From: an uncultured virus (IMG/VR IMGVR_UViG_3300046786_000447)
Lineage: Duplodnaviria; Heunggongvirae; Uroviricota; Caudoviricetes
Virus record (IMG/VR): IMGVR_UViG_3300046786_000447
Length of the DNA stretch: 64,000 nucleotides
Reading direction: 5' to 3' (one strand)
Shown piece after piece: positions 7,528 through 22,794 of this stretch (position 1 is its first letter; every line of letters starts with the position of its first letter). Under the pieces are notes generated by a model. That model saw only the letters and a program-made list of their open reading frames with translations. It did not search any database and had not been told where the DNA came from. The position numbers and the translations under genes were made by a program.

Positions 7528-7630
7528 CTTTGAGTCAAGACGAGCTGTGCTCGTTGTATACCGTCCAAATTTGACAAATCCTGAAGTTGTGCTATCATTA
7601 TATTAACCTAATTAGGAAAAGGAGACAGTT

Positions 7631-7825
7631 ATGCTAATGCGTCAAGAAGTCGTAGATCTTATGACTAACGCCATTGAGAACATGAATCGTCAAATGGCTG
7701 TTCAGCAGAATGCACCATCAGACCAAGTTGAAGAAGCTATTTCACAGCAAAAGCCTCAGCTAATGTATGTAAATGGATTGCTTTATGATCTACTAGTAGA
7801 AAATGGTGTTATTGTTAATCGTTAA
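7631..7825 (+). CDS. hypothetical protein
   Basis: AAGGAG RBS, 64 aa. Confidence 0.7.
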   Translation: MLMRQEVVDLMTNAIENMNRQMAVQQNAPSDQVEEAISQQKPQLMYVNGLLYDLLVENGVIVNR

Positions 7826-8207
7826 CAATACCCTTCAAAATTAGACCAGACTCGGTTTCGACTGTATCTGGTCTTTTTTTATGATCATTTTCTGACTTGC
7901 AAGAACAGTTCTCACAGCAAAAATCTGAAAATATTTTCATAGGCCAATTATCGTATTGGGGATATTCTTGATCGAAGTTGTTTGTCATGATTCTATTATA
8001 CCCTGGACAAAATCTGAAAAATTTCATTTTTAAGAAAATCTGAATATTTTTTAAACATGTACGATACACGATTTAGAATGAAAAAACCTGCAAAAATAGT
8101 GAGCACATTGTTATCAAAACGTTATCAAAACACCCCACTGGGTGCTTGAATTTGTCAGTGGGGGGTGCTATGCTATAAGCATAGAAAGTAAAAAGAAAGG
8201 ACATAAA

Positions 8208-8555
8208 ATGTCACTAGTAATAACAAAAGAAAACTTCGATGAAGTTCGTACCAATGGAATCGGTAACGGTTTCTCAGTAATAAATCCTGCTGATGGTTTC
8301 CGTAAGGATAACCGCCTATGGTTTGGTACTTGTTCAGTATGTAATGAATCAGTAACTAACTCTGCTGTATCAGGTAGAGGTTGGGAACACACTGTGTTTC
8401 TAATGAAGGGTTACTTCTCTAAGGATAACTACCTAAAGGGAATAACTAACCACGCTAGTAGTAAGCACGTTACTTACTGCCCTACTCAAAAGGGTGAATC
8501 TACCCCTTGCGAAATCTACTACATGGAAAATGGTGAAAAGGTTATCGTAGAATAA
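8208..8555 (+). CDS. early hypothetical protein
   Basis: AGAAAGGA RBS before ATG 8208. Confidence 0.7.
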   Translation: MSLVITKENFDEVRTNGIGNGFSVINPADGFRKDNRLWFGTCSVCNESVTNSAVSGRGWEHTVFLMKGYFSKDNYLKGITNHASSKHVTYCPTQKGESTPCEIYYMENGEKVIVE

Positions 8556-8765
8556 CCCACCATAACACGGCGTGTCAGCTTGACAAATGATCATAAAAGG
8601 GCTCGCCCCAATGTCCGATTTGTACCTTTTATCATGTGATATAAAACACCCTATAAATGTCCGTTTTGTCCGTGTCTAAACTTGACTTTTTGGGTTTTAT
8701 CTGCTAGTATTCTACTATAAACAATTAAATAAAGATAAATAAGGTAATGAGCCTAAGCAAATAAA

Positions 8766-8781
8766 TGTGACTAGTATCACA
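8766..8781. promoter_or_regulatory. CRP/GlxR-type site
   Basis: perfect TGTGA-N6-TCACA; near-match at 9859-9874. Confidence 0.6.
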
Positions 8782-8864
8782 GTGAGCCTTAGCAAATAAA
8801 GCCCCTATTTGTCAGACCCCTATGCTAGGATAGTCCTATCAGTTAATAAAGAAAGGTTGTCAAA

Positions 8865-9047
8865 ATGATAACACTAGAAAAAACAATAACATGCGAAAAG
8901 CATGTCCCTAATAAGTCTGCTAAGTCATTCCACAATGACACTTGCTACACATTCTGTGAATCATGTGAGCAGAATATCGAATCATGGTATATGGACTATG
9001 ATAGTGACCGACTATCTGGTTGGTCAGATTGGAAGGTATCTAACTAA
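8865..9047 (+). CDS. early hypothetical protein
   Basis: GAAAGG RBS, 60 aa. Confidence 0.65.
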   Translation: MITLEKTITCEKHVPNKSAKSFHNDTCYTFCESCEQNIESWYMDYDSDRLSGWSDWKVSN

Positions 9048-9223
9048 TGTATAAAGTAAAACTAGAATCGTTCAATGGTAATGTCTCTACAATTACCCTA
9101 CCTAATAAAGAGGCAGTAGAGTCTTTCATCTCTGCCTACCCTGAAAAATTGCCTACTGGTACAGCGATAAAGGTATCGTGTGACCTACTAGGTATCCGTG
9201 GCTCTATTGTAGGAAAGGCTTAA
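9047..9223 (+). CDS. early small hypothetical protein (58 aa, not in ORF track)
   Basis: TAATG coupling to previous gene; open frame. Confidence 0.6.
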   Translation: MYKVKLESFNGNVSTITLPNKEAVESFISAYPEKLPTGTAIKVSCDLLGIRGSIVGKA

Positions 9224-9226
9224 TAA

Positions 9227-9388
9227 ATGAAAACATGTAAAGTAATAAATTGCGAAAATACTAACCTAGTATATAGTGGCATAGATGCCCTTATGCTAGG
9301 GGGTATCCCTACTGAGACCTATTGCTACACCTGTGCAGCTGCCTATGCAGTAATAAGTGCAGATGTAGAAGAATTGCTAAATGTCTGA
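9227..9388 (+). CDS. early small hypothetical protein (53 aa)
   Basis: GAAAGG RBS; Cys pairs. Confidence 0.55.
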   Translation: MKTCKVINCENTNLVYSGIDALMLGGIPTETYCYTCAAAYAVISADVEELLNV

Positions 9389-9433
9389 CCCCTGTGTTAG
9401 AATAATGGCATAAAGAAAGAAAGGAAAACTAAA

Positions 9434-9580
9434 ATGTCAAAAGTAATCTGTGTGTTTTGTGAAAACATCTACTCTGAGGGCGTAATGGTCTGTCAGGAAT
9501 GTAATGAATACAAGGGGCTTATGCCGTTAGAACAGGCTAAGCAAACCTACGACTTTCTAAACCTAGAAGATGAGGAATAA
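9434..9580 (+). CDS. early small Zn-finger-like protein (48 aa)
   Basis: strong RBS; two CxxC motifs. Confidence 0.6.
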   Translation: MSKVICVFCENIYSEGVMVCQECNEYKGLMPLEQAKQTYDFLNLEDEE

Positions 9581-9733
9581 AATAAATGATTTTCTATAAC
9601 GGATTTAATTTGCTTGTTGATATCGTAATCGGTTTTCTAGTTTTTAAACTTGCGTATTCTAGTGGATACAATAAAGGTTTTAATGACTCAGAAGATTTGA
9701 ATGGTCCCCCGTTTTAACGGGATCCATTTTATC

Positions 9734-9747
9734 CGAACATCTGTTCG
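9734..9747. promoter_or_regulatory. LexA SOS box (Gram-positive/actinobacterial type)
   Basis: CGAAC-ATCT-GTTCG perfect palindrome in intergenic spacer. Confidence 0.65.
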
Positions 9748-9983
9748 AAAGGGCGAGCCCCGTTATCAAATTGTTATAATTCTTACGGCGTGTCGATTTG
9801 ACTTTTTAAGTTATGTGTGCTAGTCTTATCTCATAAAATTAAATAGTAGATAAATAAATGTGGTTCAAATCACAATCCCAAAAGTCGGGAATGTCCGAAT
9901 TGTACCTCTCAATTTGTCAGACCCCCATGCTATACTTTCAGGTATAGAAAGTTAAAGAAAGTCTCTTGAAAGGAGAACTATAA

Positions 9984-10280
9984 ATGAAAAAGTTTCGTTC
10001 TATTGAAATCGGTTCAGCCGTTGCTATCTACAATCGTGCAGGTAGTAAAAAAATCGAAGGTTCAGAAAAGCCTAACGGCTCTTTCTTAGCCCGTAAAATG
10101 TTCTACACTAATCCTGTTGCTGTTGGTACAGTAACTAAGATTCACGGGCACAATGCCCACGCTGTCCGTATCACTCTTGATAACGGAAAAGAAATTGAAA
10201 TGGGTTTAGATACTCACTACCACCTAAATGGTGAAATCGGTGAGTGTGTTGCTCACCAAGATAATTACTCAATTATCTAA
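9984..10280 (+). CDS. early hypothetical protein
   Basis: GAAAGGAG RBS. Confidence 0.7.
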   Translation: MKKFRSIEIGSAVAIYNRAGSKKIEGSEKPNGSFLARKMFYTNPVAVGTVTKIHGHNAHAVRITLDNGKEIEMGLDTHYHLNGEIGECVAHQDNYSII

Positions 10281-10330
10281 ATGTCAGACCCCTGTTATAC
10301 AATTAAACTACTAAAGAAAGGTGACAACTA

Positions 10331-10531
10331 ATGTCAGCAAATGTCTATACAATCGAAGAAGCCCTAAAGGGAACTTACTATCGCTCACACACTCTTAGAG
10401 GTGTAATCGAATACGCAGAAAAGCGTGATGATGTTTGGTATCAAGGTGCAGAAGCGTACCTTGTAACTATCCGCCCAGAATACGGAATTGGGTATAAGTA
10501 TCGTACTATCGCAGTAAAGGTTGGTGAATAA
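10331..10531 (+). CDS. early hypothetical protein
   Basis: GAAAGGTG RBS. Confidence 0.7.
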   Translation: MSANVYTIEEALKGTYYRSHTLRGVIEYAEKRDDVWYQGAEAYLVTIRPEYGIGYKYRTIAVKVGE

Positions 10532-10736
10532 TATGTATCAGATAACTGTTGCCTATGATGGAAATCAAATCCATTTTAATCAAAACTATGCAGATGCTCT
10601 TGAAGCATTTACCGCATTTAATAACTTCAAGGATTGGGGTTGGGCACTTGAATACTCAACTGTTAATCTCTCAATGCCAACAGGCAAAATGTACACACGC
10701 ATTTTTCACCGAGATGGAAAGGTAGTAACACGATAA
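10521..10736 (+). CDS. early hypothetical protein
   Basis: ORF track; operon context. Confidence 0.6.
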   Translation: MVNNMYQITVAYDGNQIHFNQNYADALEAFTAFNNFKDWGWALEYSTVNLSMPTGKMYTRIFHRDGKVVTR

Positions 10737-10878
10737 TGGAAATCTTTATCTGTTCTGGGTGCAATACCCTCGCAACTGTAAAAATGACAGGCGACACGAT
10801 AACTGTTAATGCTTGCAAATGTCAGACCAATGCACTAAACTAATAACACAAACCAAATAGAAAAGGATAGAAAATAAA

Positions 10879-11067
10879 ATGATGACTCGTAAGGACTATG
10901 TAAAGACTGCACAGATTCTAAACAACTATGCAGATGAGATTGACTTTCTAGTATTGCAAGAAATTGCAGACGGATTCGCAGAAATGTTTGAGGCAGATAA
11001 CCCAAACTTTAACTATCAGAAATTTATTGACGCTGTTTTTGAGCCAATAAATTCAGACGAAGAATAA
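10879..11067 (+). CDS. early hypothetical protein (MTRKDY family)
   Basis: MTRKDY...F..DNP.F...KF pattern seen in phage early proteins. Confidence 0.7.
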   Translation: MMTRKDYVKTAQILNNYADEIDFLVLQEIADGFAEMFEADNPNFNYQKFIDAVFEPINSDEE

Positions 11068-11131
11068 AAAAGCTTCCCCCTGTTGGGCGGATCGTAGAAA
11101 TGCGACACGCCCGACTACGGGGGCGAGGCCC

Positions 11132-11152
11132 TGTGGATAACTTTGTGGATAA
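11132..11152. promoter_or_regulatory. tandem DnaA boxes
   Basis: TGTGGATAA twice. Confidence 0.7.
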
Positions 11153-11233
11153 CTATTATAACGTTTTGATAACATTTACGTATTAAGTCATTAAGGACTT
11201 GACTTCCTGATTCGAAAATGGTAGTATTAAGTT

Positions 11234-11410
11234 ATGAAAAATAAGACTAAGAAATATCAACCAACGGCTAACCCTGCCTATGCCGAAGGTATGAGAGAGA
11301 TTCGAAAGTCTAATGCTAGTGGCACTCACCTAGATCGAAGGACACGCCGATTAAGGACTAGACAAAGTGCTATCTATCGTGCTATTATTGACCAACAGAA
11401 AGAAGGATAA
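11234..11410 (+). CDS. early small basic protein (58 aa)
   Basis: open frame directly after a TTGACT-N17-TAGTAT promoter. Confidence 0.55.
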   Translation: MKNKTKKYQPTANPAYAEGMREIRKSNASGTHLDRRTRRLRTRQSAIYRAIIDQQKEG

Positions 11411-11412
11411 CT

Positions 11413-11700
11413 ATGGGAAGCAACATGGCAACGGAATTGGCTGATAAAGACCTATTCCCTAATCTAACACTAGAAGACGCAATTGGGATGCACTTACGTG
11501 GCAACCACTATCCACCTGTACCTCTAACTATGGTACAGCCTTGTATTGAAGCTATTAACGCTTACAATGAGGATGAAGGCTCACGTATGATTACCCTGCC
11601 CGAAGGCGTATCTTGGCGTGGAGCAATTGAGGCACCTGCCTATGCGATTATTGAGGCACACCACCTTGACGCTTGGCTTGACTTGGATGAAGATTACTGA
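11413..11700 (+). CDS. early hypothetical protein
   Basis: RBS; HLRGNHYPPVP motif. Confidence 0.7.
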   Translation: MGSNMATELADKDLFPNLTLEDAIGMHLRGNHYPPVPLTMVQPCIEAINAYNEDEGSRMITLPEGVSWRGAIEAPAYAIIEAHHLDAWLDLDEDY

Positions 11701-11731
11701 TAAAATAGTTTAAAGAAAGAAAGGAACCCCT

Positions 11732-12448
11732 ATGCTAACTCGTTCGAAAGATAGGAAAGTAACTAATGCCGTATCCCCTAATGGAAAAACCCCAACTATC
11801 GCCAACACTTTTGGATTACCTAGTGGAAAGGCTTACTCGTGCCCTGGTGCAACCACTGTATGTGAAAGTGTCTGCTACGCAGGAAAACTAGAGAAAGTCT
11901 ATAAAGGCGTAAAGAATGTATTGCTATCCAATTGGGAGCAATTGAAAGACGCTGATTATCTAACTATGTATAATCTATTGGATGAAATGATTATTGCATT
12001 CAAGAAAGATTGTGATAAGCGTAGTGCAGAAAAACTATTCCGTATTCACTGGGATGGTGATTTCTTTAATGAGACTTATGTATTAGCATGGAAGGATGTA
12101 ATCCTTAAGCATGCAGATACACAATTTTGGGCCTATACCCGTTCAGACTTTGCCGTTGAACCATTAACAGGTATTGCTAACCTATCACTTTATTTTAGTA
12201 CTGATAGTGCTAATCGTGTATTGGGTATTCAACTCAAGAAGAAGCATGACGTTAAGTTAGCATACCTTGCTAAGACTTTTGCAGAAGGCAAGGCAGACTT
12301 TGAAGCAATTCAAGATAAGGCTGCCATTCCATGCCCCGAAAATGCTAAGAAGATAAAACTGATTAGCGATAAGGGCAGTGCATGTGTAACTTGCTCACAA
12401 TGTGTATTTAATCGCAATGACATTCTATTTAGTGCAACTAAGAAATGA
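11732..12448 (+). CDS. Gp88-like (radical-SAM-like Fe-S) phage protein
   Basis: SCPGAT..C...CYA and FRIHWDGDF motifs, C-terminal CxxCxxC; resembles mycobacteriophage gp88 family. Confidence 0.7.
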   Translation: MLTRSKDRKVTNAVSPNGKTPTIANTFGLPSGKAYSCPGATTVCESVCYAGKLEKVYKGVKNVLLSNWEQLKDADYLTMYNLLDEMIIAFKKDCDKRSAEKLFRIHWDGDFFNETYVLAWKDVILKHADTQFWAYTRSDFAVEPLTGIANLSLYFSTDSANRVLGIQLKKKHDVKLAYLAKTFAEGKADFEAIQDKAAIPCPENAKKIKLISDKGSACVTCSQCVFNRNDILFSATKK

Positions 12449-12944
12449 GGAACTATGCAAACCTATACAGTTGAAAAACTAACCAATGATATCTATGAGG
12501 ATAACTATTCTCATATTGACTTTATAGAAAACATGAATAGCGGTGATTGTGATTGTAGCATTCATGCTGCCATGGATTTAATTGGGACGTATTGGGGAAA
12601 GAATTGTTAATCCTTGGAATATGCCTAGCTCTATTAACAATTTTTCTGATCCAATAAATGTCGGTGGGAGGGGCTCGCCCATTTTTATCTGTTTGTCAAG
12701 TTTTACGTATTTACGGCGTGTCGTTATGAAATCGTTATAAATAATGTCCGATTTGTGGCGTTTTGGATTTGCTATTGTCGGAGGGTTTCGCTATAATTGT
12801 AGTAGTTGGAAATCAGCAGACAAAAAAGTAAATAGTTGTTATCAAAATGTTATCAAATGGACTTGATAAATGTCAGAGGTATCCGCTACAATAGTATTAT
12901 CAACAAAAGTTGGTATAAAACAACAGAAATGGAAAGGAAGCAAA

Positions 12945-13097
12945 ATGACCGCAACTTACAAGATTGGTGACACTTTCACCACCCTCAAGTCAAAGGTTAC
13001 TGGAACTATCGAAGAGATTGTTCCTAACGCATCTGGCTCGGTGCGTGTTCGCCTAAATGTGAATGGTAATCCACGCTGGACTACCTACAAGGCATAA
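12945..13097 (+). CDS. early small SH3-like protein
   Basis: GGAAAGGAAG RBS before ATG 12945. Confidence 0.6.
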   Translation: MTATYKIGDTFTTLKSKVTGTIEEIVPNASGSVRVRLNVNGNPRWTTYKA

Positions 13098-13207
13098 CGG
13101 GTATGATGTGCTGGGTATCACAATAAACTACCCACCCACCAACTTGACTTATTACCCCAAGTCGTAGTAAAATAGTATAAACAAACAAATGAAAGAAGGA
13201 AGAAATA

Positions 13208-13654
13208 ATGGCAAAATCGCTAGCAGTAAAAATCCCAACGGCTTCTCTTATCGCAGAAGTTGAGTCACAAATCGCAAAGGTAGAGCAGGACATTGACAAC
13301 TACTCTGCCCTCCGTAAGCAGTATGACCTTGATGTAAAGCAGTATGAGAAGGAAGTTATCGCTCACGCTATCAAGGCACTATCTGACCCAACAAACATTG
13401 GAACTGAGAACGGCTCACTTGTTCGTGTAACAGGTAACTATCGCTACAACGGCGTATCTGTTGAGTTCGATACAGAGGCACTAGGCTTCCCTAAGCGACC
13501 TGAAGAACCACAGCGACCAAACGAAAAGACTTACTATGGTCGTGACTACACTACCAAGTTGGACTTGCTCAAGAAGAACCTAAAGGTTCTCAAGATGACT
13601 ACGCAGGAAGAAGTAAATGCTTCGACCTACAACTCCGTAATGGAACTTCTCTAA
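13208..13654 (+). CDS. early hypothetical protein
   Basis: RBS; 148 aa with coiled coil. Confidence 0.75.
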   Translation: MAKSLAVKIPTASLIAEVESQIAKVEQDIDNYSALRKQYDLDVKQYEKEVIAHAIKALSDPTNIGTENGSLVRVTGNYRYNGVSVEFDTEALGFPKRPEEPQRPNEKTYYGRDYTTKLDLLKKNLKVLKMTTQEEVNASTYNSVMELL

Positions 13655-13731
13655 ACTGAGAAACTGACCTGAGCAAGTCAATGATAAAAGGCTCACACTA
13701 ATAATCCCAACAAAGAATAGGAAAATAAAAA

Positions 13732-13911
13732 ATGGCTCGTAAGAAGATTGTAATCGCAACAGAAAAGTGGAACACCAAGAACGGTGAAATCTACAAGGCA
13801 GTAGTTCGTGACGCTAATGGACACTTCATTGGTGCTACTAATCAGACCAAGAACATTCCTGTAAGGCAGAAGCGAAAGTCGCCAATGACTCTCTTCCTTG
13901 TTGGGAAGTAA
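13732..13911 (+). CDS. early small basic protein (59 aa)
   Basis: AGGA RBS; open frame MARKKIVIATEKW. Confidence 0.6.
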   Translation: MARKKIVIATEKWNTKNGEIYKAVVRDANGHFIGATNQTKNIPVRQKRKSPMTLFLVGK

Positions 13912-14100
13912 GAAAAACTAACCTAGGTATGTTATTAAACTGCCTCCCCTTGTGGGGTTGACAAATGGATCAGCTGAGGGTTCGCCCTTTATAACGTTTT
14001 GGTAACATTTAAGAAAAAGCTTACGACACGCCGATGTACGATTTGCATTTGTCAGACCCCCTATGTATAATTATAGGTATAAAGAGAAAGAAGGAAAGAA

Positions 14101-14622
14101 ATGGGTACAAGAGGTATCACACAGGTAATCGATTCAAATGGTCAGACTGTTGTTGCACAGTATGGCCAATGGGACCACTATCCAGAAGGACAGGGTCTAA
14201 ACATTCTATCATTCTTGACTTCAAGTCACAACATTGTTGAACTACTTGAGAAGTCACTATTCAAATGCTACTTCGCAACTGAATCAGAGTTGGAAGAGAT
14301 GTACAAGCCATTCGTTACCGCTGATGGCATGATGACAATGGATAACAGCGATAAGTTTGCTGTAATGTATCCTAGTCTAACTAGAAACACAGGTTCAGAC
14401 ATTCTTAAGGTAGTTACTTATTCGACTGGCCGTGTTCCACTATCTAATCAGATTGACTTCATTGAGGACGACCTGATGTGTGAGGGTATCTATACAATTG
14501 ATTTCCAGACTAGACTATTCACTTCACAGTATGGTGGAAAAAAGGTTGTGTTTGCTCTTGACAAACTCCCTACCGCTGATTTATACTTGAATGAGTTCGC
14601 AAAGGAAGAGGTAATGGCATAA
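14101..14622 (+). CDS. early hypothetical protein (MGTRG...YGQWDHYPEG family)
   Basis: conserved phage early-protein motif MGTR...Y.(H/Q)WD.YP.G.G. Confidence 0.75.
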   Translation: MGTRGITQVIDSNGQTVVAQYGQWDHYPEGQGLNILSFLTSSHNIVELLEKSLFKCYFATESELEEMYKPFVTADGMMTMDNSDKFAVMYPSLTRNTGSDILKVVTYSTGRVPLSNQIDFIEDDLMCEGIYTIDFQTRLFTSQYGGKKVVFALDKLPTADLYLNEFAKEEVMA

Positions 14623-14813
14623 TGGAAAAGACAGAATACACAATCCTAACAGGTGAGTCATATAGCGTTATGGCCACAAGCGAAGATGAAGCAATGGCAA
14701 AGTTCTTTATTCATCTAGGTTTTGAAGATGAGGAAGACTATAAGGATTCAGGATTTGATTTCTCTGACCCTAATGATGTAGAATATAGCGAAACACTAAC
14801 GGAGGTATTGTAA
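14622..14813 (+). CDS. early hypothetical protein
   Basis: TAATG coupling. Confidence 0.65.
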   Translation: MEKTEYTILTGESYSVMATSEDEAMAKFFIHLGFEDEEDYKDSGFDFSDPNDVEYSETLTEVL

Positions 14814-15010
14814 TGAGTAAGTATCAAACGGTAACCGTCAAACTAACTGGCAATGATGGGAATGCATTCTCAATCATGGCCCAAGTCTCAAAGGCACTGC
14901 GTAAAGCTGGAGCTAGCTCTGAAGAGGTAGAACAGTATATGTCTGAGTCTATGTCTGGAGACTACAACAATCTTCTACGTACCGCAATGAAATGGGTTAA
15001 CGTAGAGTAA
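14813..15010 (+). CDS. early hypothetical protein (DGNAF family)
   Basis: LTGNDGNAFSIM...SGDY..LL motif. Confidence 0.75.
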   Translation: MSKYQTVTVKLTGNDGNAFSIMAQVSKALRKAGASSEEVEQYMSESMSGDYNNLLRTAMKWVNVE

Positions 15011-15017
15011 GAGGTAC

Positions 15018-15049
15018 TGCAGGCCGTTCATCCTTTCTTTCTGCCTGCA
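15018..15049 (+). ncRNA. hairpin with anti-SD/anti-AUG loop
   Basis: TGCAGGC/GCCTGCA stem; loop CGTTCATCCTTTCTTTCT. Confidence 0.45.
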
Positions 15050-15122
15050 TGCTAAGGGACCTGAGCACGTCCATGTAAACTGCTCATTACCCTTGCACTG
15101 GGGATCGAAAAGTGCTCGCCCC

Positions 15123-15152
15123 TGTGGATAACTCTGATCAGCCTGTGGATAA
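15123..15152. promoter_or_regulatory. tandem DnaA boxes
   Basis: TGTGGATAA at 15123 and 15144. Confidence 0.7.
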
Positions 15153-15270
15153 CTTTGTTACGAGATCGTTACGACACGCCCATGATTTTTGGCTATTTGA
15201 TTTGACATTGTCGGTGGGGTCATGTAAAATTATAGTATTAGAAAAACCCTACAACAGAAAGGAGCCTCTC

Positions 15271-16284
15271 ATGGCTCATTTGCTAGAATCAGACGCTAAC
15301 GGAAACACTGCTTTCGCATCTTTGCGAGAGCCTGCATGGCATGGTCTTGGAACTGTGTTCAATGAAGAAGTTACTACATCTAAGATGTTGGAACTCGCTC
15401 ACCTAGACAACTGGAATGTTCGTCTTGAAGACGTATCAATTCCTGACACATTCGCAAGTGACAAGAACTATTTCTTCGTTACTCGCACAAACCCATTCGA
15501 CAATTCTCAGAACGATGTTCTTGGCGTTGTTGGCGAACGCTACAAGGTTTTGCAGAATGAAGATTTGTTCTCATTCGGTGACAACATTCTTGATGGTGGC
15601 GGACGTTGGGAAACTGCTGGCTCAATCAAGGGTGGTCGTGTTGTGTTCGGCTCTCTTGCTCTTGAACGTGAAACTGTTCTTGACCCTACTGGCGTTGCAG
15701 ATAAGGTAAAGACTTATCTTCTAATCAACACCTCTCACGATGGTTCAATTGCAATTCAAGCAAGCATTACACCTGTTCGTGTTGTGTGTGCTAACACTCT
15801 AAACCTTGCTCTTGGCTCACGTGGTCGTGGTCCTAAGCAATCTTTCAAGATTCGTCACACTCAGACTGCAGAAGGCAAGATTGCTGTTGCACGTGAGACT
15901 CTTGGCTTGGCTAACAAGTACATGGACGAATTCGACAAGATGGCACACGCCATGATTCAGACTGAGGTCAATGCTAAGCAATTCAACGACATCATTCTTG
16001 CTGCTTATCCTAAGCCTGACAAGGACACTAAGGGTGCTGTCAAGAAGTGGGAAAACAAGGTAGATGTTATCAATGACATTTACACTGGTCAATTCAACGG
16101 CATGATTGCTGGCAACGCTTGGGGTGCTTTCAATGCACTAACTGAACGTCTTGATTGGTATCGCTCAGCACGTGGTGGTTCTAACGAATCTATCCTTGCA
16201 AGTGCAAGTGGATTTGACCCTGCTATCAATGCAGAAAAGAATCGCCTGCTCAAGATTGTGCAGAACACTTTGCAGACTGCATAA
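15271..16284 (+). CDS. DUF932 family phage/plasmid protein
   Basis: PAWHGLG, Y..LQN, ETAGS..GG..VF, NTSHDGS, TPVRVVCANTL; GAAAGGAG RBS before ATG 15271. Confidence 0.9.
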   Translation: MAHLLESDANGNTAFASLREPAWHGLGTVFNEEVTTSKMLELAHLDNWNVRLEDVSIPDTFASDKNYFFVTRTNPFDNSQNDVLGVVGERYKVLQNEDLFSFGDNILDGGGRWETAGSIKGGRVVFGSLALERETVLDPTGVADKVKTYLLINTSHDGSIAIQASITPVRVVCANTLNLALGSRGRGPKQSFKIRHTQTAEGKIAVARETLGLANKYMDEFDKMAHAMIQTEVNAKQFNDIILAAYPKPDKDTKGAVKKWENKVDVINDIYTGQFNGMIAGNAWGAFNALTERLDWYRSARGGSNESILASASGFDPAINAEKNRLLKIVQNTLQTA

Positions 16285-16567
16285 TTATGCACTCCTAGGC
16301 ATGAGTATAAACTGCCTCCCTCTGGGGATCGTGTTAAGCTTGACAAACGCACGAAAAGGGGCTCGCCCCAAATTGTTTTATTTGTCAAGTCAATTTAAAT
16401 TACGATAGTATAACATTTTCCTGGGATTACGTACACTAGGACAAATAGTCACAAATTGGACATTACGTAGCTTATTAGATCCATTTGGGGGATTACGTAC
16501 AGCCTACTTGACTTTGTCAGGGGGTAGGTGTAAAATTGAAGTATCAGAAAGTAGAAAGGAAAACCCC

Positions 16568-17098
16568 ATGCATGTATTGCAAAATATAGCAATTAAGGCA
16601 GAATCAAAAGATGAGGCTGCTGAAATTGTCAAATCTAAGTTCGATAGTATGTATTCAGAATCTGAGGGCTTAGGAGGCTGGAGTGATTGGTTCGTTGTTG
16701 GTGGTGGGCGTTGGAACAGCAGTTCTTCTAATCAGTACCACGATAGTAGTAATGACGTTATCTCTTATGTTGATAACATGGAACAATTTAATCTTACCGT
16801 TAGCAACTCTCTTCAATACCGTCGTGAAGAAGTGGAGAGAATGAAGGAACGTATTGACTTCGATAAGTTCCAGAATGTTATTGATAAGTTTATTTCAAAT
16901 GACTTCTCAAATGAGGATAGGTTTGATATGAACACATGGTATATCAAGAAGATTGCTAGTATTATTAATGGCGAATGGAACTCAGACAGTTATTTCTACG
17001 ACCTAGAAAACTATTCGACATCTTCAGAATATATGCAGGAGAACCTTGACAAGGGTTCTAAAAAATGGTATCTTGTACCAGTAGACTTCCACTTCTAA
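16568..17098 (+). CDS. early hypothetical protein
   Basis: WSDWFVVGGGRW and VPVDFH motifs; RBS before ATG 16568. Confidence 0.7.
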   Translation: MHVLQNIAIKAESKDEAAEIVKSKFDSMYSESEGLGGWSDWFVVGGGRWNSSSSNQYHDSSNDVISYVDNMEQFNLTVSNSLQYRREEVERMKERIDFDKFQNVIDKFISNDFSNEDRFDMNTWYIKKIASIINGEWNSDSYFYDLENYSTSSEYMQENLDKGSKKWYLVPVDFHF

Positions 17099-17116
17099 GA
17101 GAAAGTAGATAAACAA

Positions 17117-17296
17117 ATGGGAATATACAACGTTAAAGTAGTAGTTGAGTATGAGTATGAGGTAGAGGCTGATAACCTTGAAGAAGCAGAAAAGCAGGGT
17201 TTTGACTACGAGGAGTATTCTTACACTGCTGACATTTATAGCATAGACGCTGAAGAAGTTCCTTCTGATGAAGATGAGGAGGATGAAGATGAGTAA
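17117..17296 (+). CDS. early acidic small protein (59 aa)
   Basis: YEVEADNLEEAE motif; open frame. Confidence 0.6.
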   Translation: MGIYNVKVVVEYEYEVEADNLEEAEKQGFDYEEYSYTADIYSIDAEEVPSDEDEEDEDE

Positions 17297-17483
17297 GTAT
17301 ATTACCAATGTTAATGGTGATTGGTGGGAGCTTGACCCTACCCACCCAGTTTGGGTGCTAGACACTGACGATTTGACGGCAGAGCAATTGTCTGCTATCA
17401 TTGATGAACATGACGGATTTGGCAATGACAAGTTCGAAGACGTAATTCGAGAGTATGGAAGAGAGACCCCACTTAATGTCTAA
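17268..17483 (+). CDS. early hypothetical protein
   Basis: ORF track; real start probably MSKY. Confidence 0.6.
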   Translation: MKMRRMKMSKYITNVNGDWWELDPTHPVWVLDTDDLTAEQLSAIIDEHDGFGNDKFEDVIREYGRETPLNV

Positions 17484-17904
17484 GTTTTATACATATGGCT
17501 CTTGGGTAGATACCTTTAAGCCAATCAGAAATAATATCAGTAAGTATCAAGACGACAGCCTTATCCACTTTGAGACCTATGGTGAAGAAGTAGATTTTGT
17601 AAAGAAGGCTGACCCTAAGCACATCTGGACTGAAGTAGATGGTGACGAGGGTACTTATATCGTAGCAGGCTGGCACTTTGTCAATCGTATTCACTACTAC
17701 ATCACAGAGAATCCTTGGGAAGATGAATACACAGAGATTCCTACTTGGACCTACCGTCCCTGTGACTGCTCTGATGAGACTGAAGATGGCGAATACAATC
17801 CTGAATGCCCTGAGTGTGATGAGGGCCTAGTAGATATCGACTGTGACACCGTAGAAGCACTTAAGCAGATTTATGGAGAAGACAATGCTGACATTATTTC
17901 GTAA
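17455..17904 (+). CDS. early hypothetical protein
   Basis: FETYG.E...G.HFVNRI.YY motif. Confidence 0.65.
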   Translation: MEERPHLMSKFYTYGSWVDTFKPIRNNISKYQDDSLIHFETYGEEVDFVKKADPKHIWTEVDGDEGTYIVAGWHFVNRIHYYITENPWEDEYTEIPTWTYRPCDCSDETEDGEYNPECPECDEGLVDIDCDTVEALKQIYGEDNADIIS

Positions 17905-18226
17905 GAAAGCTAAGACCATGATTGACTATGACCTGAACATCTTCATGCTGGAGATTCAGGACCCAATGACTGATGAATGGTACTACGACCCCACCTCGTG
18001 GCATGTGCACGTATACAAGGTAGATGGAGCTGGACACCATGAGGTTGACGTTGCAAGGCCACTAACACCTGAAGAGATTAGAGGCCTGGCCCTTAACAAC
18101 GATCCATATTTTGATGGTGGCGATGCCTGGTATGGAATGTATGGGTACCTACAGGACTATGCTAGCATCATCCCTGAATCTATTAAAGAATACTTGGAAT
18201 CATTCCCAATGTATGAAGCTTCCTAG
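17873..18226 (+). CDS. early hypothetical protein
   Basis: ORF track; operon context. Confidence 0.6.
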   Translation: MEKTMLTLFRKKAKTMIDYDLNIFMLEIQDPMTDEWYYDPTSWHVHVYKVDGAGHHEVDVARPLTPEEIRGLALNNDPYFDGGDAWYGMYGYLQDYASIIPESIKEYLESFPMYEAS

Positions 18227-18279
18227 TTGAGCTTAGCTCCTAGGATATGGTACAGCTAAGGGGTTGGCTGTATCACCAA

Positions 18280-18327
18280 GGAGGGGGGCAGGTGGACATT
18301 TCCTACTTTCACCACTTGCCCTCTTCC
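18280..18327 (+). ncRNA. 16-bp hairpin with anti-SD/anti-AUG loop
   Basis: stem fully paired, with 3 G-U pairs on plus strand; loop ACATTTCCTACTTTCA. Confidence 0.5.
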
Positions 18328-18362
18328 CCAATTTTTGGTATAATCAACTGTGAGGTATAACT

Positions 18363-18566
18363 ATGAGAAAAATGCGACATAGCATAACAAATGAAGAGAA
18401 GGTGGCTCAAAAGATAGATAGTTTGATTTCAGATGTAAGATTAGACATTGACTCCATTGGAATGTATTTTGGACAGATGTCATCAATCACTGGCTACTAT
18501 CGTCTTGAGAACATCGTAGAAGCAGCACGAGCAGAGAGAGAAGACAATGGCAAACGAATCTGGTAA
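18363..18566 (+). CDS. hypothetical protein
   Basis: TGGTATAAT promoter plus GAGG RBS. Confidence 0.65.
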   Translation: MRKMRHSITNEEKVAQKIDSLISDVRLDIDSIGMYFGQMSSITGYYRLENIVEAARAEREDNGKRIW

Positions 18567-18819
18567 GACAGCAATAGAAAATAAGATGGCTATTCTTTCA
18601 GAACTATGGCTTAACTATAGGAACGAAGAAGAGTTTAATGATTTTATTACTTATAACGACTTGGCACTGCCATTGGCGTTTGCTGTAGATGCTGGTATTG
18701 TAGAGGTTAATCCTAAGATTGAGACATTCGTCAATGAGTGTTGGGATTTGCTGCTTACAGGACTAGACACTAAAGACACAGGCTTTGATACACTTGACGA
18801 TTTGTTAGATTCGGAGTAG
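18547..18819 (+). CDS. hypothetical protein
   Basis: ORF track. Confidence 0.65.
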   Translation: MANESGKTAIENKMAILSELWLNYRNEEEFNDFITYNDLALPLAFAVDAGIVEVNPKIETFVNECWDLLLTGLDTKDTGFDTLDDLLDSE

Positions 18820-18828
18820 AATAGAACT

Positions 18829-19182
18829 ATGACAACCCCTACATTAGAACATAGAGACGAATTAGACTCTATCATTAATAAACTACATACACTAAATGAT
18901 GTCCTTTTCCCTAGCCTTGTATGGCTATGGGTATGGGATGTTATCAATACCTTCTATACAGATGAAGAACTATATATTCGTACATCAGATATTGTATGGG
19001 AAGCCCTGGTCTCCAATACCCCTGCCTTTACCCTTGAGTATGGTACAGAACAACTCTACGAAGAGGTAAGAGATTGGATGTTCAATAATAGTCTAATGAT
19101 TGATATCTCAGATATGGATTCAGAAGAGATTGAAAAATGGACGGCAGACAAGGAGCATGGAACATATGTCCAAGGTAGATAA
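18829..19182 (+). CDS. hypothetical protein
   Basis: ORF track. Confidence 0.6.
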   Translation: MTTPTLEHRDELDSIINKLHTLNDVLFPSLVWLWVWDVINTFYTDEELYIRTSDIVWEALVSNTPAFTLEYGTEQLYEEVRDWMFNNSLMIDISDMDSEEIEKWTADKEHGTYVQGR

Positions 19183-19369
19183 GCACCTAAGAGATTATAC
19201 AGAAACAGAACTATTAGAAACGATCTGCGAGTTCTGCCTAGACCCTGAGATGAATATGGCAGAATATATGTGTCCTAACTGCAGCAAGGATAATGAGATT
19301 ATCTGTGTTGAGTGTTGTGGTTGCTTTGAGGACGAAACCATGTTAGACTATGTAATGTCAATAAGTTAG
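19100..19369 (+). CDS. Cys-rich hypothetical protein
   Basis: several CxxC motifs; start uncertain. Confidence 0.55.
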   Translation: MISQIWIQKRLKNGRQTRSMEHMSKVDKHLRDYTETELLETICEFCLDPEMNMAEYMCPNCSKDNEIICVECCGCFEDETMLDYVMSIS

Positions 19370-19631
19370 GAAAAAGTATGGAAACCTTTTTAAAAGAACG
19401 CATCGCTGAACTGAAGGAATCAATGGAAGGATTGGATATCAATGATAGTCTTAATGATTATCTTGAGGGAGCCATTGATGCATATGAAATAGTATTGGGG
19501 AAGATAAATGGATAAGGTATATTACTGGTCAGACCTAGCTGAATTAAACCATGATACACAGGTAGAGGAATTTGGCTTCTGCCTATGTGAAGATGGACCA
19601 CCTAGTTATAGTAACTGTCCTAAATAAGATT

Positions 19632-19653
19632 AGCCACCTTCGGGTGGCTTTTT
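19632..19653 (+). terminator. intrinsic terminator ending the early region
   Basis: AGCCACC-TTCG-GGTGGCT followed by T-run. Confidence 0.85.
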
Positions 19654-20412
19654 CTTTACCCCAAAGGGCGTGGTAATTTTTAGCCTCCTTTACGAAGGAC
19701 CTCAAAAAATCGCTGGAACTTTTGGATTATAACATTACGATCCCCCATTGTCAAATTGGTGTATAATAATATTATGAGTCCTAGAAACCATTTCTTCCAA
19801 GTGTCATATCCAAAAGCTGCTCAACAGCAAAGAGATGATCACAATGAGATGTCTCTATTTGTATGGCATGCCTTTACGAAGTATACTGGGATTCAGAAGC
19901 TCTTTTCATTTACCGTGCTACCCCTACAAAGCCAGGTATCTGATAAGACTAACTCTAACTCAAATGTAAAGTAGAAAGGATCTCAATGATCATGGTAGAA
20001 CTACTACCTGGGGTGGTCCCCATTTAACGGGGGGATTACGAAGAAGCATCTATATCCCCTATAGTACTAATAAGAGAACATTCTCTGAGGTTTGTCCAAA
20101 TAAGGATATTGTTATATTAAATTATTTAATTTTTATATAACGTTATTCCAAATTTGGACAAATTTCTTTTTGCAGACATTACGATGCATAGCACAATATC
20201 CCTGATTTGTCAAATATAACAATTTGATAACTATGACAAATGTCACAATTTGATAACAATTTGGATATGCCTGATTTGACAATTTGGTCAATTTGTGGTA
20301 GGGGGCTGTCCCGAAAATGATTACGAGGGCTATTAAAGATGCTCAATACTCCACTATCATCCACTTCCATCCACTTTAACCCTGTATAACAAACTAAACA
20401 GTAATATCTACT

Positions 20413-20529
20413 TGTGGATAAACCTGTGGATAACTATCTCTAAAACCTAACAAACCATCTTAAAACCTAACAAATCAGACATTACGAACCTAACAAACAT
20501 ATCTCCAAAACCTAACAACCTGTGGATAA
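20413..20529. repeat. three DnaA boxes flanking four AACCTAACAA direct repeats (origin- or terminus-like)
   Basis: TGTGGATAA at 20413, 20425 and 20521; AACCTAACAA x4 between them. Confidence 0.7.
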
Positions 20530-20630
20530 CTTATCATCTTAAGGTACTATAACACCTCAAAGATGCTATACTAAAAGTATGTTTAAAAGCTTTCTAAAAT
20601 ACTTTCTAGTATCCTTCACAGCCACATTGG

Positions 20631-21880: not shown

Positions 21881-22351
21881 TTAATCATCTTCGCTCCCAA
21901 TTATGTGTACCTCTAGTTTACCACTAGCCTGCATTTCCTGTACCCATCCTGCAGCCCATTCATCCATCTCAGCACGTGCAGCAACCTCTTCAGGAGCATT
22001 ATAGTCATATGCCATCTCTTTAGCATGCCACTCACGTACGGTCTCCAGTGCCTCGTCTAGGCTCTTAAAGTCCTGGCTACGTCCTTCTTCACAGAATACG
22101 TATGAGTAGATGCAGACATTCATAATAGGGACCTCAGATGGATTCTCAGAACGATCCCAATAGTTTCCGTACTCTACGCTAATCCAGCCTTCAGAAGACT
22201 TACAGTGCCCTTCGTAGGAGAAATAGTGCTGGTATGCTTCATCTAGCAAACGGCTAATCTCTTGTAGTTTTTCAGTATTGTCCAATTTCTTACTTTCTTC
22301 TATGTTGTGGTTCATGCATTTTCCTTGTGTGTAACCCAGTAGTATTGGCAA
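21881..22351 (-). CDS. hypothetical protein
   Basis: ORF track; real start probably MNHN. Confidence 0.6.
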   Translation of the reverse strand: MPILLGYTQGKCMNHNIEESKKLDNTEKLQEISRLLDEAYQHYFSYEGHCKSSEGWISVEYGNYWDRSENPSEVPIMNVCIYSYVFCEEGRSQDFKSLDEALETVREWHAKEMAYDYNAPEEVAARAEMDEWAAGWVQEMQASGKLEVHIIGSEDD

Positions 22352-22794
22352 CGGTCACAGCATGGTTCATTGTTAGGACTGATAACAGCCTTAGCAAAGT
22401 TATGGTAGTAGATATCGTCTTTACGATACAGGTTAGCCTTGTGTGTGGTAGTAACCTTAGCCATAATGTTCTTATCGTTATACCACTTAGGCAGTCCATT
22501 ACCCCATTGGTCGATTGTACGTACACGTAGTTGGATTAGGTTATCTTTGTTCTTATCAGTCTTAATACCCCTGCGATCTGCCTCACGTAGCATGGCTAGG
22601 ATATAGTCAAATAGGGTATTCTCATAGCCACGCCACATCTTAACAGCAGGGTGGTTACGCCATCCAGCTCTAGGGTCAGGATTCATAAGTACATTCATAA
22701 TCTGGTAGCCCTCTAGAATTTGCTTATTAAGACGCTTAGAGTCTAGTGCATGGGCAGACTTATCGAAGTCTTTGTATGGTAAAAAAGTTTGCAT
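22312..22794 (-). CDS. pyrimidine-dimer DNA glycosylase / endonuclease V-like (MSMEG_6728 family)
   Basis: MQTFLPY...LD.KRL.KQ..E..QI...W..HPAVKMWRGY. Confidence 0.85.
   Translation of the reverse strand: MQTFLPYKDFDKSAHALDSKRLNKQILEGYQIMNVLMNPDPRAGWRNHPAVKMWRGYENTLFDYILAMLREADRRGIKTDKNKDNLIQLRVRTIDQWGNGLPKWYNDKNIMAKVTTTHKANLYRKDDIYYHNFAKAVISPNNEPCCDRCQYYWVTHKENA

What the first reader, a model, noticed from the sequence alone, without database searches (positions are those of the whole stretch)
8153..16536. Early genes sit behind 11 PafBC/RecA-NDp-type DNA-damage promoters
Seen: TGTC(A/G/T)G, exactly 10 nt, then TANNNT at 8153 (TATGCT), 8810 (TAGGAT), 9382 (TAGAAT), 9915 (TATACT), 10282 (TACAAT), 10820 (TAAACT), 12776 (TATAAT), 12871 (TACAAT), 14050 (TATAAT), 15209 (TAAAAT) and 16515 (TAAAAT). 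Each lies ahead of SD-led ORFs, and several also carry a TTG -35 element. Known: TGTCRG-N10-TANNNT is the RecA-independent promoter of actinobacteria, read by the WYL-domain activator PafBC, which senses nucleic acid/ssDNA and redirects SigA to a -26 element. Inference: the phage wires its early programme into the host's LexA-independent DNA-damage regulon, possibly using its own incoming DNA as the trigger. I know of no description of this as a phage strategy.
Basis: partly seen in the sequence, partly recalled or inferred. Interest (0 to 1): 0.92.

Follow-up and report, generated by a model that had tools for sequence, protein, structure and literature searches.

The report
Phage early promoters mimic PafBC boxes
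A block of small early genes in an uncultured freshwater phage sits behind about eleven promoters whose sequence and spacing match the DNA-damage promoter that actinobacteria place in front of recA, so the phage may switch on these genes through its host's damage sensor.

Summary
All 11 sites are at the stated coordinates, and a twelfth lies at 10332. The window has 15 matches against 2.0 expected.

The motif is conserved. In 80 related IMG/VR loci it occurs 629 times on the gene strand and 57 times on the other. In five complete relatives it is confined to one block of about 5-9 kb. Each of the six letters TGTCAG and the exact 10-nt gap to TAnnnT is needed: 405 unique sites, against at most 22 for any substitution and 13 or 2 for gaps of 9 or 11.

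This geometry equals the published PafBC consensus tGTCgg(N10)tA(N3)T. The same box precedes recA in 5 of 5 small and 23 of 27 evenly drawn actinobacterial genomes.

No sigma, WhiB, WYL or PafB/C-like gene was found in the phage.

Not shown:
- the host;
- dependence on PafBC;
- transcription start sites;
- the trigger.

Many sites also carry a -35-like hexamer and an extended -10, so they may fire without an activator.

Verdict: a genuine promoter family of PafBC type. Hijack of the host damage activator is the best explanation (about 0.5), not proven. I found no paper describing it.

The parts
8153..8174 (+). Class B promoter TGTCAG-N10-TATGCT ahead of the ORF at 8208-8555. TTGAAT lies 17 nt upstream of the -10.
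8810..8831 (+). Class B promoter TGTCAG-N10-TAGGAT ahead of the ORF at 8865-9047. No -35-like hexamer; TG extended -10.
9382..9403 (+). Class B variant TGTCTG-N10-TAGAAT ahead of the ORF at 9434-9580. It overlaps the 3' end of the ORF at 9227-9388.
9915..9936 (+). Class B promoter TGTCAG-N10-TATACT ahead of the ORF at 9984-10280.
10282..10303 (+). Class B promoter TGTCAG-N10-TACAAT ahead of the ORF at 10331-10531.
10332..10353 (+). Extra match inside the first codons of the ORF at 10331. It is kept in relatives, perhaps only because it is coding sequence. Status open.
10820..10841 (+). Class B promoter TGTCAG-N10-TAAACT ahead of the ORF at 10879-11067.
12776..12797 (+). Class B promoter TGTCGG-N10-TATAAT, with TTGCTA 17 nt upstream. 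It stands in tandem with the 12871 promoter.
12871..12892 (+). Class B promoter TGTCAG-N10-TACAAT ahead of the ORF at 12945-13097.
14050..14071 (+). Class B promoter TGTCAG-N10-TATAAT ahead of the ORF at 14101-14622.
15209..15230 (+). Class B promoter TGTCGG-N10-TAAAAT with a perfect TTGACA 17 nt upstream, ahead of the DUF932 gene at 15271-16284. The orthologous promoter is conserved in 80 relatives.
16515..16536 (+). Class B promoter TGTCAG-N10-TAAAAT with TTGACT 17 nt upstream, ahead of the ORF at 16568-17098.
8682..8710 (+). Class A canonical promoter TTGACT-17-TAGTAT, 128 nt upstream of the class B promoter at 8810.
9798..9826 (+). Class A canonical promoter-like site (TTGACT, 17 nt, TAGTCT), 117 nt upstream of the class B promoter at 9915.
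11199..11227 (+). Class A canonical promoter TTGACT-17-TAGTAT ahead of the ORF at 11234-11410.
13144..13173 (+). Class A canonical promoter TTGACT-18-TAAAAT ahead of the ORF at 13208-13654.
8208..19974 (+). Block of about 33 small + strand ORFs. Almost all are orphans. Named families are GP88 (11732-12448), DUF932 (15271-16284) and phrog_1933 (14813-15010). Taken to be the early region.
19632..19649 (.). G+C-rich hairpin with T runs on both sides, near the end of the block. Terminator-like on both strands.

Best explanation
The eleven sites are real promoters of a class built like the actinobacterial PafBC (RecA-NDp) promoter. An asymmetric TGTC(A/G)G element sits at about -28 to -23, followed by W-S-S, exactly 10 nt before a TAnnnT -10 hexamer.

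Proposed mechanism: the host RNA polymerase with its housekeeping sigma factor reads the -10. The host heterodimer PafBC, once loaded with single-stranded DNA, bridges sigma region 4 to the TGTCAG element ('sigma adaptation'). Most genes of the phage's early block would then be driven or boosted whenever the cell senses ssDNA or damage. That could include infection itself, or UV stress in surface water.

Canonical -35/-10 promoters in the same block would give PafBC-independent immediate expression. Many class B sites also have a partial -35 and an extended -10, so PafBC probably boosts them and is not strictly required.

Shown here: the motif, its conservation, its strict geometry, its identity with host-lineage recA promoters, and the lack of a recognisable phage-encoded activator. 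Inferred: the host, PafBC binding, the timing and the trigger.
For: 1. Enrichment. The window has 15 matches against 2.0 expected, 12 of them on one strand within 8.4 kb.

2. Conservation.
- 80 related loci hold 629 gene-strand and 57 other-strand matches.
- In five relatives rated 100% complete, 8-12 matches cluster on one strand in a single block of about 5-9 kb.
- Five further partial contigs hold 7-16 matches on one strand and 0-1 on the other.

3. Strict requirement.
- TGTCAG gives 405 unique sites; any single substitution gives at most 22.
- A gap of 10 gives 405 sites, a gap of 9 gives 13, and a gap of 11 gives 2.
- The last G is needed, and the letter before the first T is A or T in equal shares. 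This rules out reading TTGTCA as a -35 hexamer.

4. At the orthologous DUF932 promoter, 58 of 62 distinct sequences keep TGTC[AG]G while the 10-nt spacer varies.

5. The published PafBC consensus is tGTCgg(N10)tA(N3)T, a '-26 element' read by PafB R46 and R50 at the GTC triplet (passages of PMC8635444). PafBC is activated by ssDNA (passages of PMC11804915).

6. The same box stands upstream of recA.
- It is there in 5 of 5 genomes of 1.3-1.4 Mb, next to a LexA-type box.
- It is there in 23 of 27 evenly drawn published genomes of the class.
- Those boxes show the same W-S-S after the hexamer. In the phage (38% G+C) these two positions are 83-84% G or C.

7. Candidate host lineages have the factor.
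- A PafC-type HTH domain was found in 382 of 401 class genomes, and in 25 of the 29 of 1.5 Mb or less.
- Five small genomes each hold one tandem pafB-pafC pair and no other WYL regulator-sized gene.
- One such PafB aligns over its full length to the M. smegmatis chain 7p5x_AY (E 2.7e-36), with RMFERDK, which holds R46 and R50, identical.

8. In three small genomes, 16 of 30 motif hits are followed by an ATG 6-7 nt after the -10, as in leaderless genes. The genes include recA, an RNase T-type exonuclease, DUF6504 and DNA methylases. The box is therefore a working promoter type there.

9. No phage sigma factor, WhiB, WYL or HTH domain was found.
- Pfam was run on 109 window ORFs and on 58 ORFs of the other half of the complete relative G405.
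- PHROGs was run on 36 ORFs.
- My own PafB and PafC HMMs found nothing in the six-frame ORFs of the window or of G405; the best E-value was about 1.
Against: - The host is not identified. An adenosyltransferase, GroES, a DNA search and the protein atlas gave no answer.
- 43% of class B sites have a 4/6 or better match to TTGACA at 16-18 nt (control 15%), and 58% have an extended -10 TG (control 10%). In the window, 8 of 11 sites have a -35-like hexamer. PafBC promoters are described as lacking a -35, so these sites could fire without PafBC.
- The fifth letter is A in 92% of phage sites. It is G in 19 of 23 recA boxes of mostly high-GC genomes, though it is A in 3 of the 5 small genomes.
- The cultured relative Jay2Jay has 0 hits in its first 14 kb, and 2 hits in the whole record against 5 for the control pattern.
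- Other conserved upstream elements of unknown role (AATGTCCGATTTG, GGCGTGTCG) hint at further, possibly phage-specific, regulators.
- No start sites or expression timing could be read. RNA-library contigs cover the block but cannot show starts.
- Making an early programme depend on a damage signal looks risky for a lytic phage.
Confidence: 0.5

Rival explanations
1. Housekeeping-sigma promoters that need no activator. The -10 (often extended) and a weak -35 suffice. TGTCAG in the spacer is then an operator or contact for something else, for example a phage or host repressor that shuts early genes off, or a decoy that soaks up PafBC without needing it for activity.
For: - Extended -10 TG occurs in 245 of 425 sites (control 71 of 681), and a -35-like hexamer in 183 of 425 (control 99 of 681).
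- TTGACA or TTGACT stands at 17 nt at 15202 and 16508.
- GATTTGCAT is as conserved as TGTCAG at the DUF932 promoter.
- Canonical TTGACn-17-TAnnnT promoters are common in the same loci, 352 against 94, so the phage clearly uses unaided host polymerase as well.
Against: - 57% of sites have no usable -35.
- The element is asymmetric, which is unlike typical dimeric repressor operators.
- An inverted repeat around the -10 is not a general feature: 10% of sites against 4% of shuffles.
- The letters, the exact register and the following W-S-S coincide with host-lineage recA promoters. An unrelated operator would not be expected to do that.
Confidence: 0.22
2. Middle-type promoters read with a phage-encoded activator of no known family, working like T4 MotA/AsiA. 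A product of the canonical class A promoters would bind TGTCAG and recruit host polymerase. The likeness to the PafBC box would be convergence, or deliberate mimicry of the same sigma surface.
For: - The block holds about 30 orphan ORFs of unknown function.
- Class A promoters stand 117-128 nt upstream of two class B promoters and directly ahead of two other ORFs, which would allow a cascade.
- The motif is confined to this phage clade and is not seen in the Streptomyces relative.
- Extra conserved upstream elements suggest clade-specific factors.
Against: - No HTH, sigma, WhiB, WYL or PafB/C-like protein was detected by Pfam, PHROGs or my own HMMs.
- An independent factor would have to match six letters, the exact spacing and the flanking W-S-S of the host box by chance.
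Confidence: 0.15
3. The repeats are leftovers of duplicated intergenic cassettes, or a non-promoter signal such as a packaging, replication or RNA-processing site.
For: The intergenic regions share several other repeats. DnaA-box-like sequences lie among them.
Against: - The position is fixed about 30 nt ahead of ribosome sites and start codons.
- The sites are specific to one strand.
- The spacer varies while the hexamer and the -10 stay constant.
- Single substitutions are almost never tolerated.
- The same box fronts leaderless genes in cellular genomes.
Confidence: 0.03

Closest known systems
PafBC-dependent (RecA-NDp) promoters of mycobacteria and other actinobacteria
   Same: The hexamer TGTC(A/G)G, the exact 10-nt gap and the TAnnnT -10 are the same. 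W-S-S follows the hexamer, as in recA promoters of the class. The element is asymmetric and single.
   Different: - These sites are on a phage, about 11 copies in 8.4 kb, whereas a whole 1.3-1.4 Mb cellular genome has 11-14 pattern hits.
- The fifth letter is mostly A.
- Many copies add a -35-like hexamer and an extended -10.
- The transcripts have 25-35 nt leaders with ribosome sites, whereas many host-side copies front leaderless genes.
- Dependence on PafBC is untested.
T4 middle promoters (MotA box with AsiA, sigma appropriation)
   Same: A -10 element is combined with a specific box near -30 that takes over the role of the -35. The PafBC paper itself draws this parallel (passage).
   Different: In T4 the activator and co-activator are phage-encoded and act after early expression. 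Here no phage factor was found, and the box equals a host box.
WYL-domain regulators that couple DNA-damage sensing to anti-phage defence (BrxR, CapW, and the Moraxellaceae activator of PMC12392091; titles and abstracts seen)
   Same: In three small actinobacterial genomes the same box fronts DNA methylase, MmeI-type and helicase genes in an island, as well as recA. One ssDNA-sensing switch may thus serve both repair and defence.
   Different: Those systems regulate host genes. Here a phage appears to carry the target sites.
Phage genes wired to the host SOS repressor LexA (recalled from general knowledge, not from a call)
   Same: Phage expression is tied to the host's DNA-damage state.
   Different: LexA represses, and the known cases mostly concern prophage induction. 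Here a presumably lytic phage (no integrase or repressor domain was found) would use an activator for its early genes. One LexA-like box at 9735 is not above chance.

Membership tests
PafBC-dependent (RecA-NDp) promoter | tGTCgg-type hexamer at about -28 to -23 | tested here: met
   TGTC[AG]G at 10 of 11 sites and TGTCTG at one. Each letter is needed across the clade: 405 sites against at most 22 for any substitution. The consensus comes from passages of PMC8635444.
PafBC-dependent (RecA-NDp) promoter | Exactly 10 nt between the hexamer and a TAnnnT -10 | tested here: met
   A gap of 10 gives 405 unique sites, a gap of 9 gives 13, and a gap of 11 gives 2.
PafBC-dependent (RecA-NDp) promoter | No -35 element | tested here: inconclusive
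   57% of 425 clade sites have 3 or fewer of 6 matches to TTGACA, and 43% have 4 or more (control 15%). In the window, 8 of 11 have a -35-like hexamer.
PafBC-dependent (RecA-NDp) promoter | Flanking preference as in chromosomal boxes (W-S-S after the hexamer) | tested here: met
   In the phage, positions 7 and 8 are 83-84% G or C in a genome of 38% G+C. The recA boxes of 23 genomes show the same pattern.
PafBC-dependent (RecA-NDp) promoter | The host encodes PafBC with the DNA-reading arginines | tested here: inconclusive
   The host is unknown. A PafC HTH domain is in 382 of 401 class genomes. Five small genomes each hold a tandem pair. R46 and R50 are conserved in one of them.
PafBC-dependent (RecA-NDp) promoter | Transcription depends on PafBC and ssDNA or damage | not testable with these tools
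   This needs in vitro transcription or reporter assays.
PafBC-dependent (RecA-NDp) promoter | Transcript start 6-8 nt after the -10 | not testable with these tools
   The RNA libraries are held only as contigs, so no starts can be read.
T4-type middle promoter (sigma appropriation by phage factors) | A phage-encoded activator that binds the box | tested here: not met
   No DNA-binding or sigma-related domain was found in 109 window ORFs, in 58 ORFs of G405, or in 36 ORFs by PHROGs. My own PafB/C HMMs gave nothing below E of about 1. Orphan proteins cannot be excluded.
Canonical housekeeping-sigma promoter | TTGACA-like -35 at 17 +/- 1 nt from TATAAT-like -10 | tested here: inconclusive
   Met by some class B sites (15202, 16508) and by the separate class A sites. 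Not met by 57% of class B sites.

The most novel reading that the evidence does not exclude
An abundant clade of uncultured freshwater actinophages runs most of its early programme through the host's ssDNA-sensing WYL activator PafBC. In candidate host genomes that same switch drives recA and restriction-modification genes.

Infection, or sunlight damage, would be the inducing signal. The ten or more phage copies of the box, multiplied by replication, would also compete with the host's few repair and defence promoters for PafBC. That would turn the cell's alarm into the phage's ignition key.
Probability: 0.3. Interest if true: 0.88.

Novelty: new variant of a known kind. Interest (0 to 1): 0.74.

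Why it matters
PafBC and 'sigma adaptation' are known only as a host DNA-damage response. A phage that carries a dozen target sites for it would be a new way of taking over host transcription, using no phage-encoded factor.

It would tie phage early expression to ssDNA sensing. That is the same signal that WYL regulators use to switch on defence.

The clade is common: 509 IMG/VR stretches encode a relative of one early-block protein, DUF932. Its contigs appear in freshwater metatranscriptome libraries, so the mechanism could matter ecologically.

It is directly testable with published M. smegmatis reagents, because the DNA-reading residues of PafB are conserved.

Tried and rejected
Host identification failed.
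- A cobalamin adenosyltransferase query found mostly alphaproteobacteria at 43-52% identity.
- GroES is 48-58% identical to every genome tried.
- A 19.5 kb DNA query gave only matches of 34-90 bp.
- The protein atlas returned viral clusters only.
- The earlier-findings index held nothing for this genome.

Reading TTGTCA as a -35 hexamer for a second -10 six nt further on was rejected. The G after TGTCA is needed and the preceding letter is A or T. Only 119 of 405 sites have a TAnnnT at a gap of 16.

An inverted repeat over the -10, seen at 8153, 9915 and 14050, is not general: 10% of sites against 4% of shuffles have arms of 6 or more.

LexA-type boxes (GAACN4GTTC): 2 in the window, and 11 of 100 shuffles reach that number. 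Not significant.

RNA evidence: four freshwater metatranscriptome runs hold contigs over the block, with depth in 29 of 30 bins in X1. Contigs show neither starts, strand nor level, and DNA carry-over is possible, so nothing about transcription is claimed. The bin 12708-13141 had the highest summed depth in two of the four runs (X1, X2), which the tool warns must not be used to rank genes.

A wider scan with TTGTCAGACCCC-N5-TAnnnT found at least 134 IMG/VR stretches. The five contigs checked are 34-47% complete fragments, probably of the same size class. So it stays untested whether unrelated phage lineages share the box.

The paper on pafBC and mycobacteriophage resistance (Rafique 2025, cited in PMC12848934) is not held. 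It may bear on novelty.

Full report
WHAT IS IN THE SEQUENCE

The pattern TGTC[A/G/T]G-N10-TANNNT occurs 15 times in the window. Dinucleotide shuffles give 2.0 on average, and 0 of 100 shuffles reach 15. Twelve matches lie on the + strand between 8153 and 16536.

Outside 7600-20500 there is one exact TGTC[AG]G match per strand.

Ten of the eleven sites stand ahead of a small ORF with an AAAGGA-type ribosome site. Site 12776 stands in tandem with 12871.

The window has about 39% G+C and carries 23 tRNA genes.

THE PHAGE

Its genes mark it as a relative of the large Streptomyces phages of family Stanwilliamsviridae.
- The DUF932 protein (15271-16284) is up to 55.8% identical to theirs. In those phages the gene has two places per record, one within the first 2.7 kb of the record and one more that I take to lie in the copy of a terminal repeat at the other end.
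- A GP88-family protein, CHAP/PG-binding and M23/LysM lysins and a PASTA domain fit a Gram-positive, actinobacterial host.
- 509 IMG/VR stretches encode a relative of the DUF932 protein, and the best 80 were kept as loci.
- Freshwater metatranscriptome libraries hold contigs of the block.

THE MOTIF IS CONSERVED AND STRICT

- In the 80 related loci the motif occurs 629 times on the gene strand and 57 times on the other, in 1.35 Mb.
- Five relatives rated 100% complete (108-117 kb) each hold 8-12 matches clustered on one strand in a single block of about 5-9 kb. Elsewhere their counts are at background.
- Five further partial contigs show 7-16 matches on one strand against 0-1 on the other.
- A substitution scan over unique sites shows that each of the six letters is needed: 405 sites for TGTCAG, at most 22 for any single change. 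The gap must be exactly 10: 405 sites, against 13 for 9 and 2 for 11.
- The letter before the first T is A or T in equal shares, and the G after TGTCA is required. The element is therefore not a displaced TTGACA.
- After the hexamer come W-S-S, with 83-84% G or C at two positions of a 38% G+C genome. An extended -10 TG is frequent.
- At the orthologous DUF932 promoter, 58 of 62 distinct sequences keep TGTC[AG]G while the spacer changes freely.
- The start codon usually lies about 30-34 nt after the -10.

COMPARISON WITH THE KNOWN PafBC BOX

Passages of PMC8635444 give the in vivo PafBC consensus as tGTCgg(N10)tA(N3)T. They describe a '-26 element' (-23 to -28) read by PafB arginines 46 and 50 at the GTC triplet, in promoters that lack a -35. 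Passages of PMC11804915 show that ssDNA bound to the WYL domains activates PafBC. The phage motif has the same letters and the same register.

I then tested whether the box is in use in plausible host lineages.

- A PafC-type HTH domain (PF19187) is found in 382 of 401 evenly drawn genomes of the class, and in 25 of the 29 that are 1.5 Mb or smaller. This tally includes nine genomes flagged as unpublished.
- Five genomes of 1.3-1.4 Mb all carry TGTC[AG]G-N10-TAnnnT upstream of recA, next to a LexA-type box. In three of them the hexamer is TGTCAG.
- Among 27 evenly drawn published genomes, 23 have the box upstream of recA, with W-S-S after it.
- Five small genomes each hold one tandem pafB-pafC pair, plus only a weak WYL match in an ORF of about 740 residues.
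- One such PafB aligns over its full length with the M. smegmatis chain of the polymerase complex 7p5x. The stretch RMFERDK, which holds R46 and R50 by my count of the printed alignment, is identical.

WHOLE-GENOME HITS IN THREE SMALL GENOMES

Whole-genome scans of three such genomes give only 11-14 hits each, against 9-10 for the reversed control pattern. That is about as many hits as the phage packs into 8.4 kb.

In 16 of the 30 hits examined, an ATG opening an ORF of at least 60 codons follows 6-7 nt after the -10. This is the layout of leaderless genes. The genes include recA, an RNase T-type exonuclease, DUF6504 (three times), N6/N4 and C5 DNA methylases, an MmeI-type enzyme and a HATPase_c_3 protein. 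Several of them cluster in one island.

DOES THE PHAGE BRING ITS OWN FACTOR?

- Pfam on 109 window ORFs and on 58 ORFs of the other half of the complete relative G405 found no sigma factor, WhiB, WYL or HTH domain.
- PHROGs on 36 ORFs, 33 of them from the early block, found none either.
- HMMs that I built from six PafB and six PafC sequences found nothing better than E of about 1 among 2,168 six-frame ORFs of the window and G405.
- About 30 early proteins are orphans, so an unknown factor cannot be excluded.

WHAT SPEAKS AGAINST A PURE PafBC READING

- 43% of class B sites have a 4/6 or better -35-like hexamer (control 15%), and 58% have an extended -10 (control 10%).
- In the window, 8 of 11 sites have such a hexamer, including a perfect TTGACA at 15202.
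- Separate canonical promoters (TTGACT-17-TAGTAT) lie in the same block, two of them 117-128 nt upstream of class B promoters.
- The cultured relative Jay2Jay lacks the motif.
- Further conserved elements of unknown role sit upstream: AATGTCCGATTTG, and GGCGTGTCG in both orientations.
- The host could not be identified.
- RNA contigs cannot show start sites.

JUDGEMENT

The motif is a genuine promoter family, and by sequence it is of the PafBC type. The coincidence covers six letters, an exact register and the flanking G/C preference, and recA promoters across the class share all of these. That makes use of the host factor the most economical explanation (about 0.5). Because of the partial -35 and the extended -10, PafBC more likely boosts these promoters than switches them on outright.

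The rivals are:
- unaided housekeeping promoters with an operator or decoy in the spacer (0.22);
- an unrecognised phage activator (0.15);
- a non-promoter repeat (0.03).

NOVELTY

Four full-text searches found no paper that describes phage promoters of this type. The term sets were PafBC with phage; RecA-NDp with phage; PafBC with mycobacteriophage and promoter; and 'sigma adaptation' with bacteriophage (listings and abstracts only, apart from the passages cited above).

One subscription paper on pafBC and mycobacteriophage resistance is cited in PMC12848934 but is not held.

Noticed in passing
window 20100-20550: An A+T-rich stretch between the converging + and - strand gene blocks. It holds three DnaA-box-like TGTGGATAA copies (20413, 20423, 20520), four AACCTAACAA repeats and ATTTGTCAA/ATTTGACAA repeats. 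It looks like a replication origin that uses host DnaA.
   Followed up: partly
window 11130-11156 and 15121-15158: Pairs of CCTGTGGATAACT (DnaA-box-like) lie inside early intergenic regions, upstream of promoters. CTGTGGAT is among the most enriched 8-mers in the relatives, in both orientations.
   Followed up: partly
window 8766-8781, 9859-9874, 13107-13122: TGTGA-N6-TCACA palindromes of CRP/GlxR type lie in early intergenic regions. One is perfect and two have one mismatch. The window has 11 matches at up to one mismatch against 3.7 expected. Two of them lie between a class A and a class B promoter.
   Followed up: partly
window 8610-8622, 9890-9902, 12743-12755; also L012-L084 upstream of DUF932: A conserved AATGTCCGA(T/A)TTG element stands 23-40 nt upstream of class B hexamers. 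It contains TGTCCG, one letter away from the promoter hexamer. Its role is unknown.
   Followed up: partly
window 8566-8576, 9784-9794, 12704-12714 (+) and 14031-14041, 15171-15181 (reverse complement): ACGGCGTGTC(G/A), or its reverse complement, is in most long intergenic regions. GGCGTGTC is the most over-represented 8-mer in 80 relatives, at 30 times expectation, in both orientations. Unexplained.
   Followed up: partly
window about 13660-13700, 15060-15095; L005-L084: Strand-specific CCTGAGCA ... (A)AACTGCTCA pairs stand after genes: 273 against 11, and 280 against 12, in the relatives. The arms are complementary, so they could form a terminator or an RNA-processing hairpin without a T tail.
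   Followed up: no
L218 (G268:C1:416000-435999), L219, L220: In small actinobacterial genomes several TGTC[AG]G-N10-TAnnnT boxes cluster in one island. They sit directly in front of leaderless genes for DNA methylases, an MmeI-type enzyme, a helicase neighbour, HATPase_c_3 and trypsin-like proteins. A PafBC-type box may control restriction or defence genes there.
   Followed up: partly
window 9735-9746: GAACATCTGTTC, a LexA/Cheo-type box like the one next to host-lineage recA promoters, lies in an early intergenic region. Two such boxes in the window are not above chance.
   Followed up: yes
window 22312-22698, 22890-23447, 28729-29019, 61519-63549; G405 53.7-57.2 kb: Auxiliary genes include a T4 endonuclease V-like pyrimidine-dimer glycosylase, a cobalamin adenosyltransferase next to a B12-dependent class II ribonucleotide reductase, and GroES. 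The relative G405 also has a class Ib reductase set (NrdI/E/F), RecA and a Pol III alpha subunit.
   Followed up: no
window 7950-8070: Three copies of AAAATCTGAA(A/T)A(A/T)TTT lie in the divergent region between the - strand genes and the early block. Unexplained.
   Followed up: no
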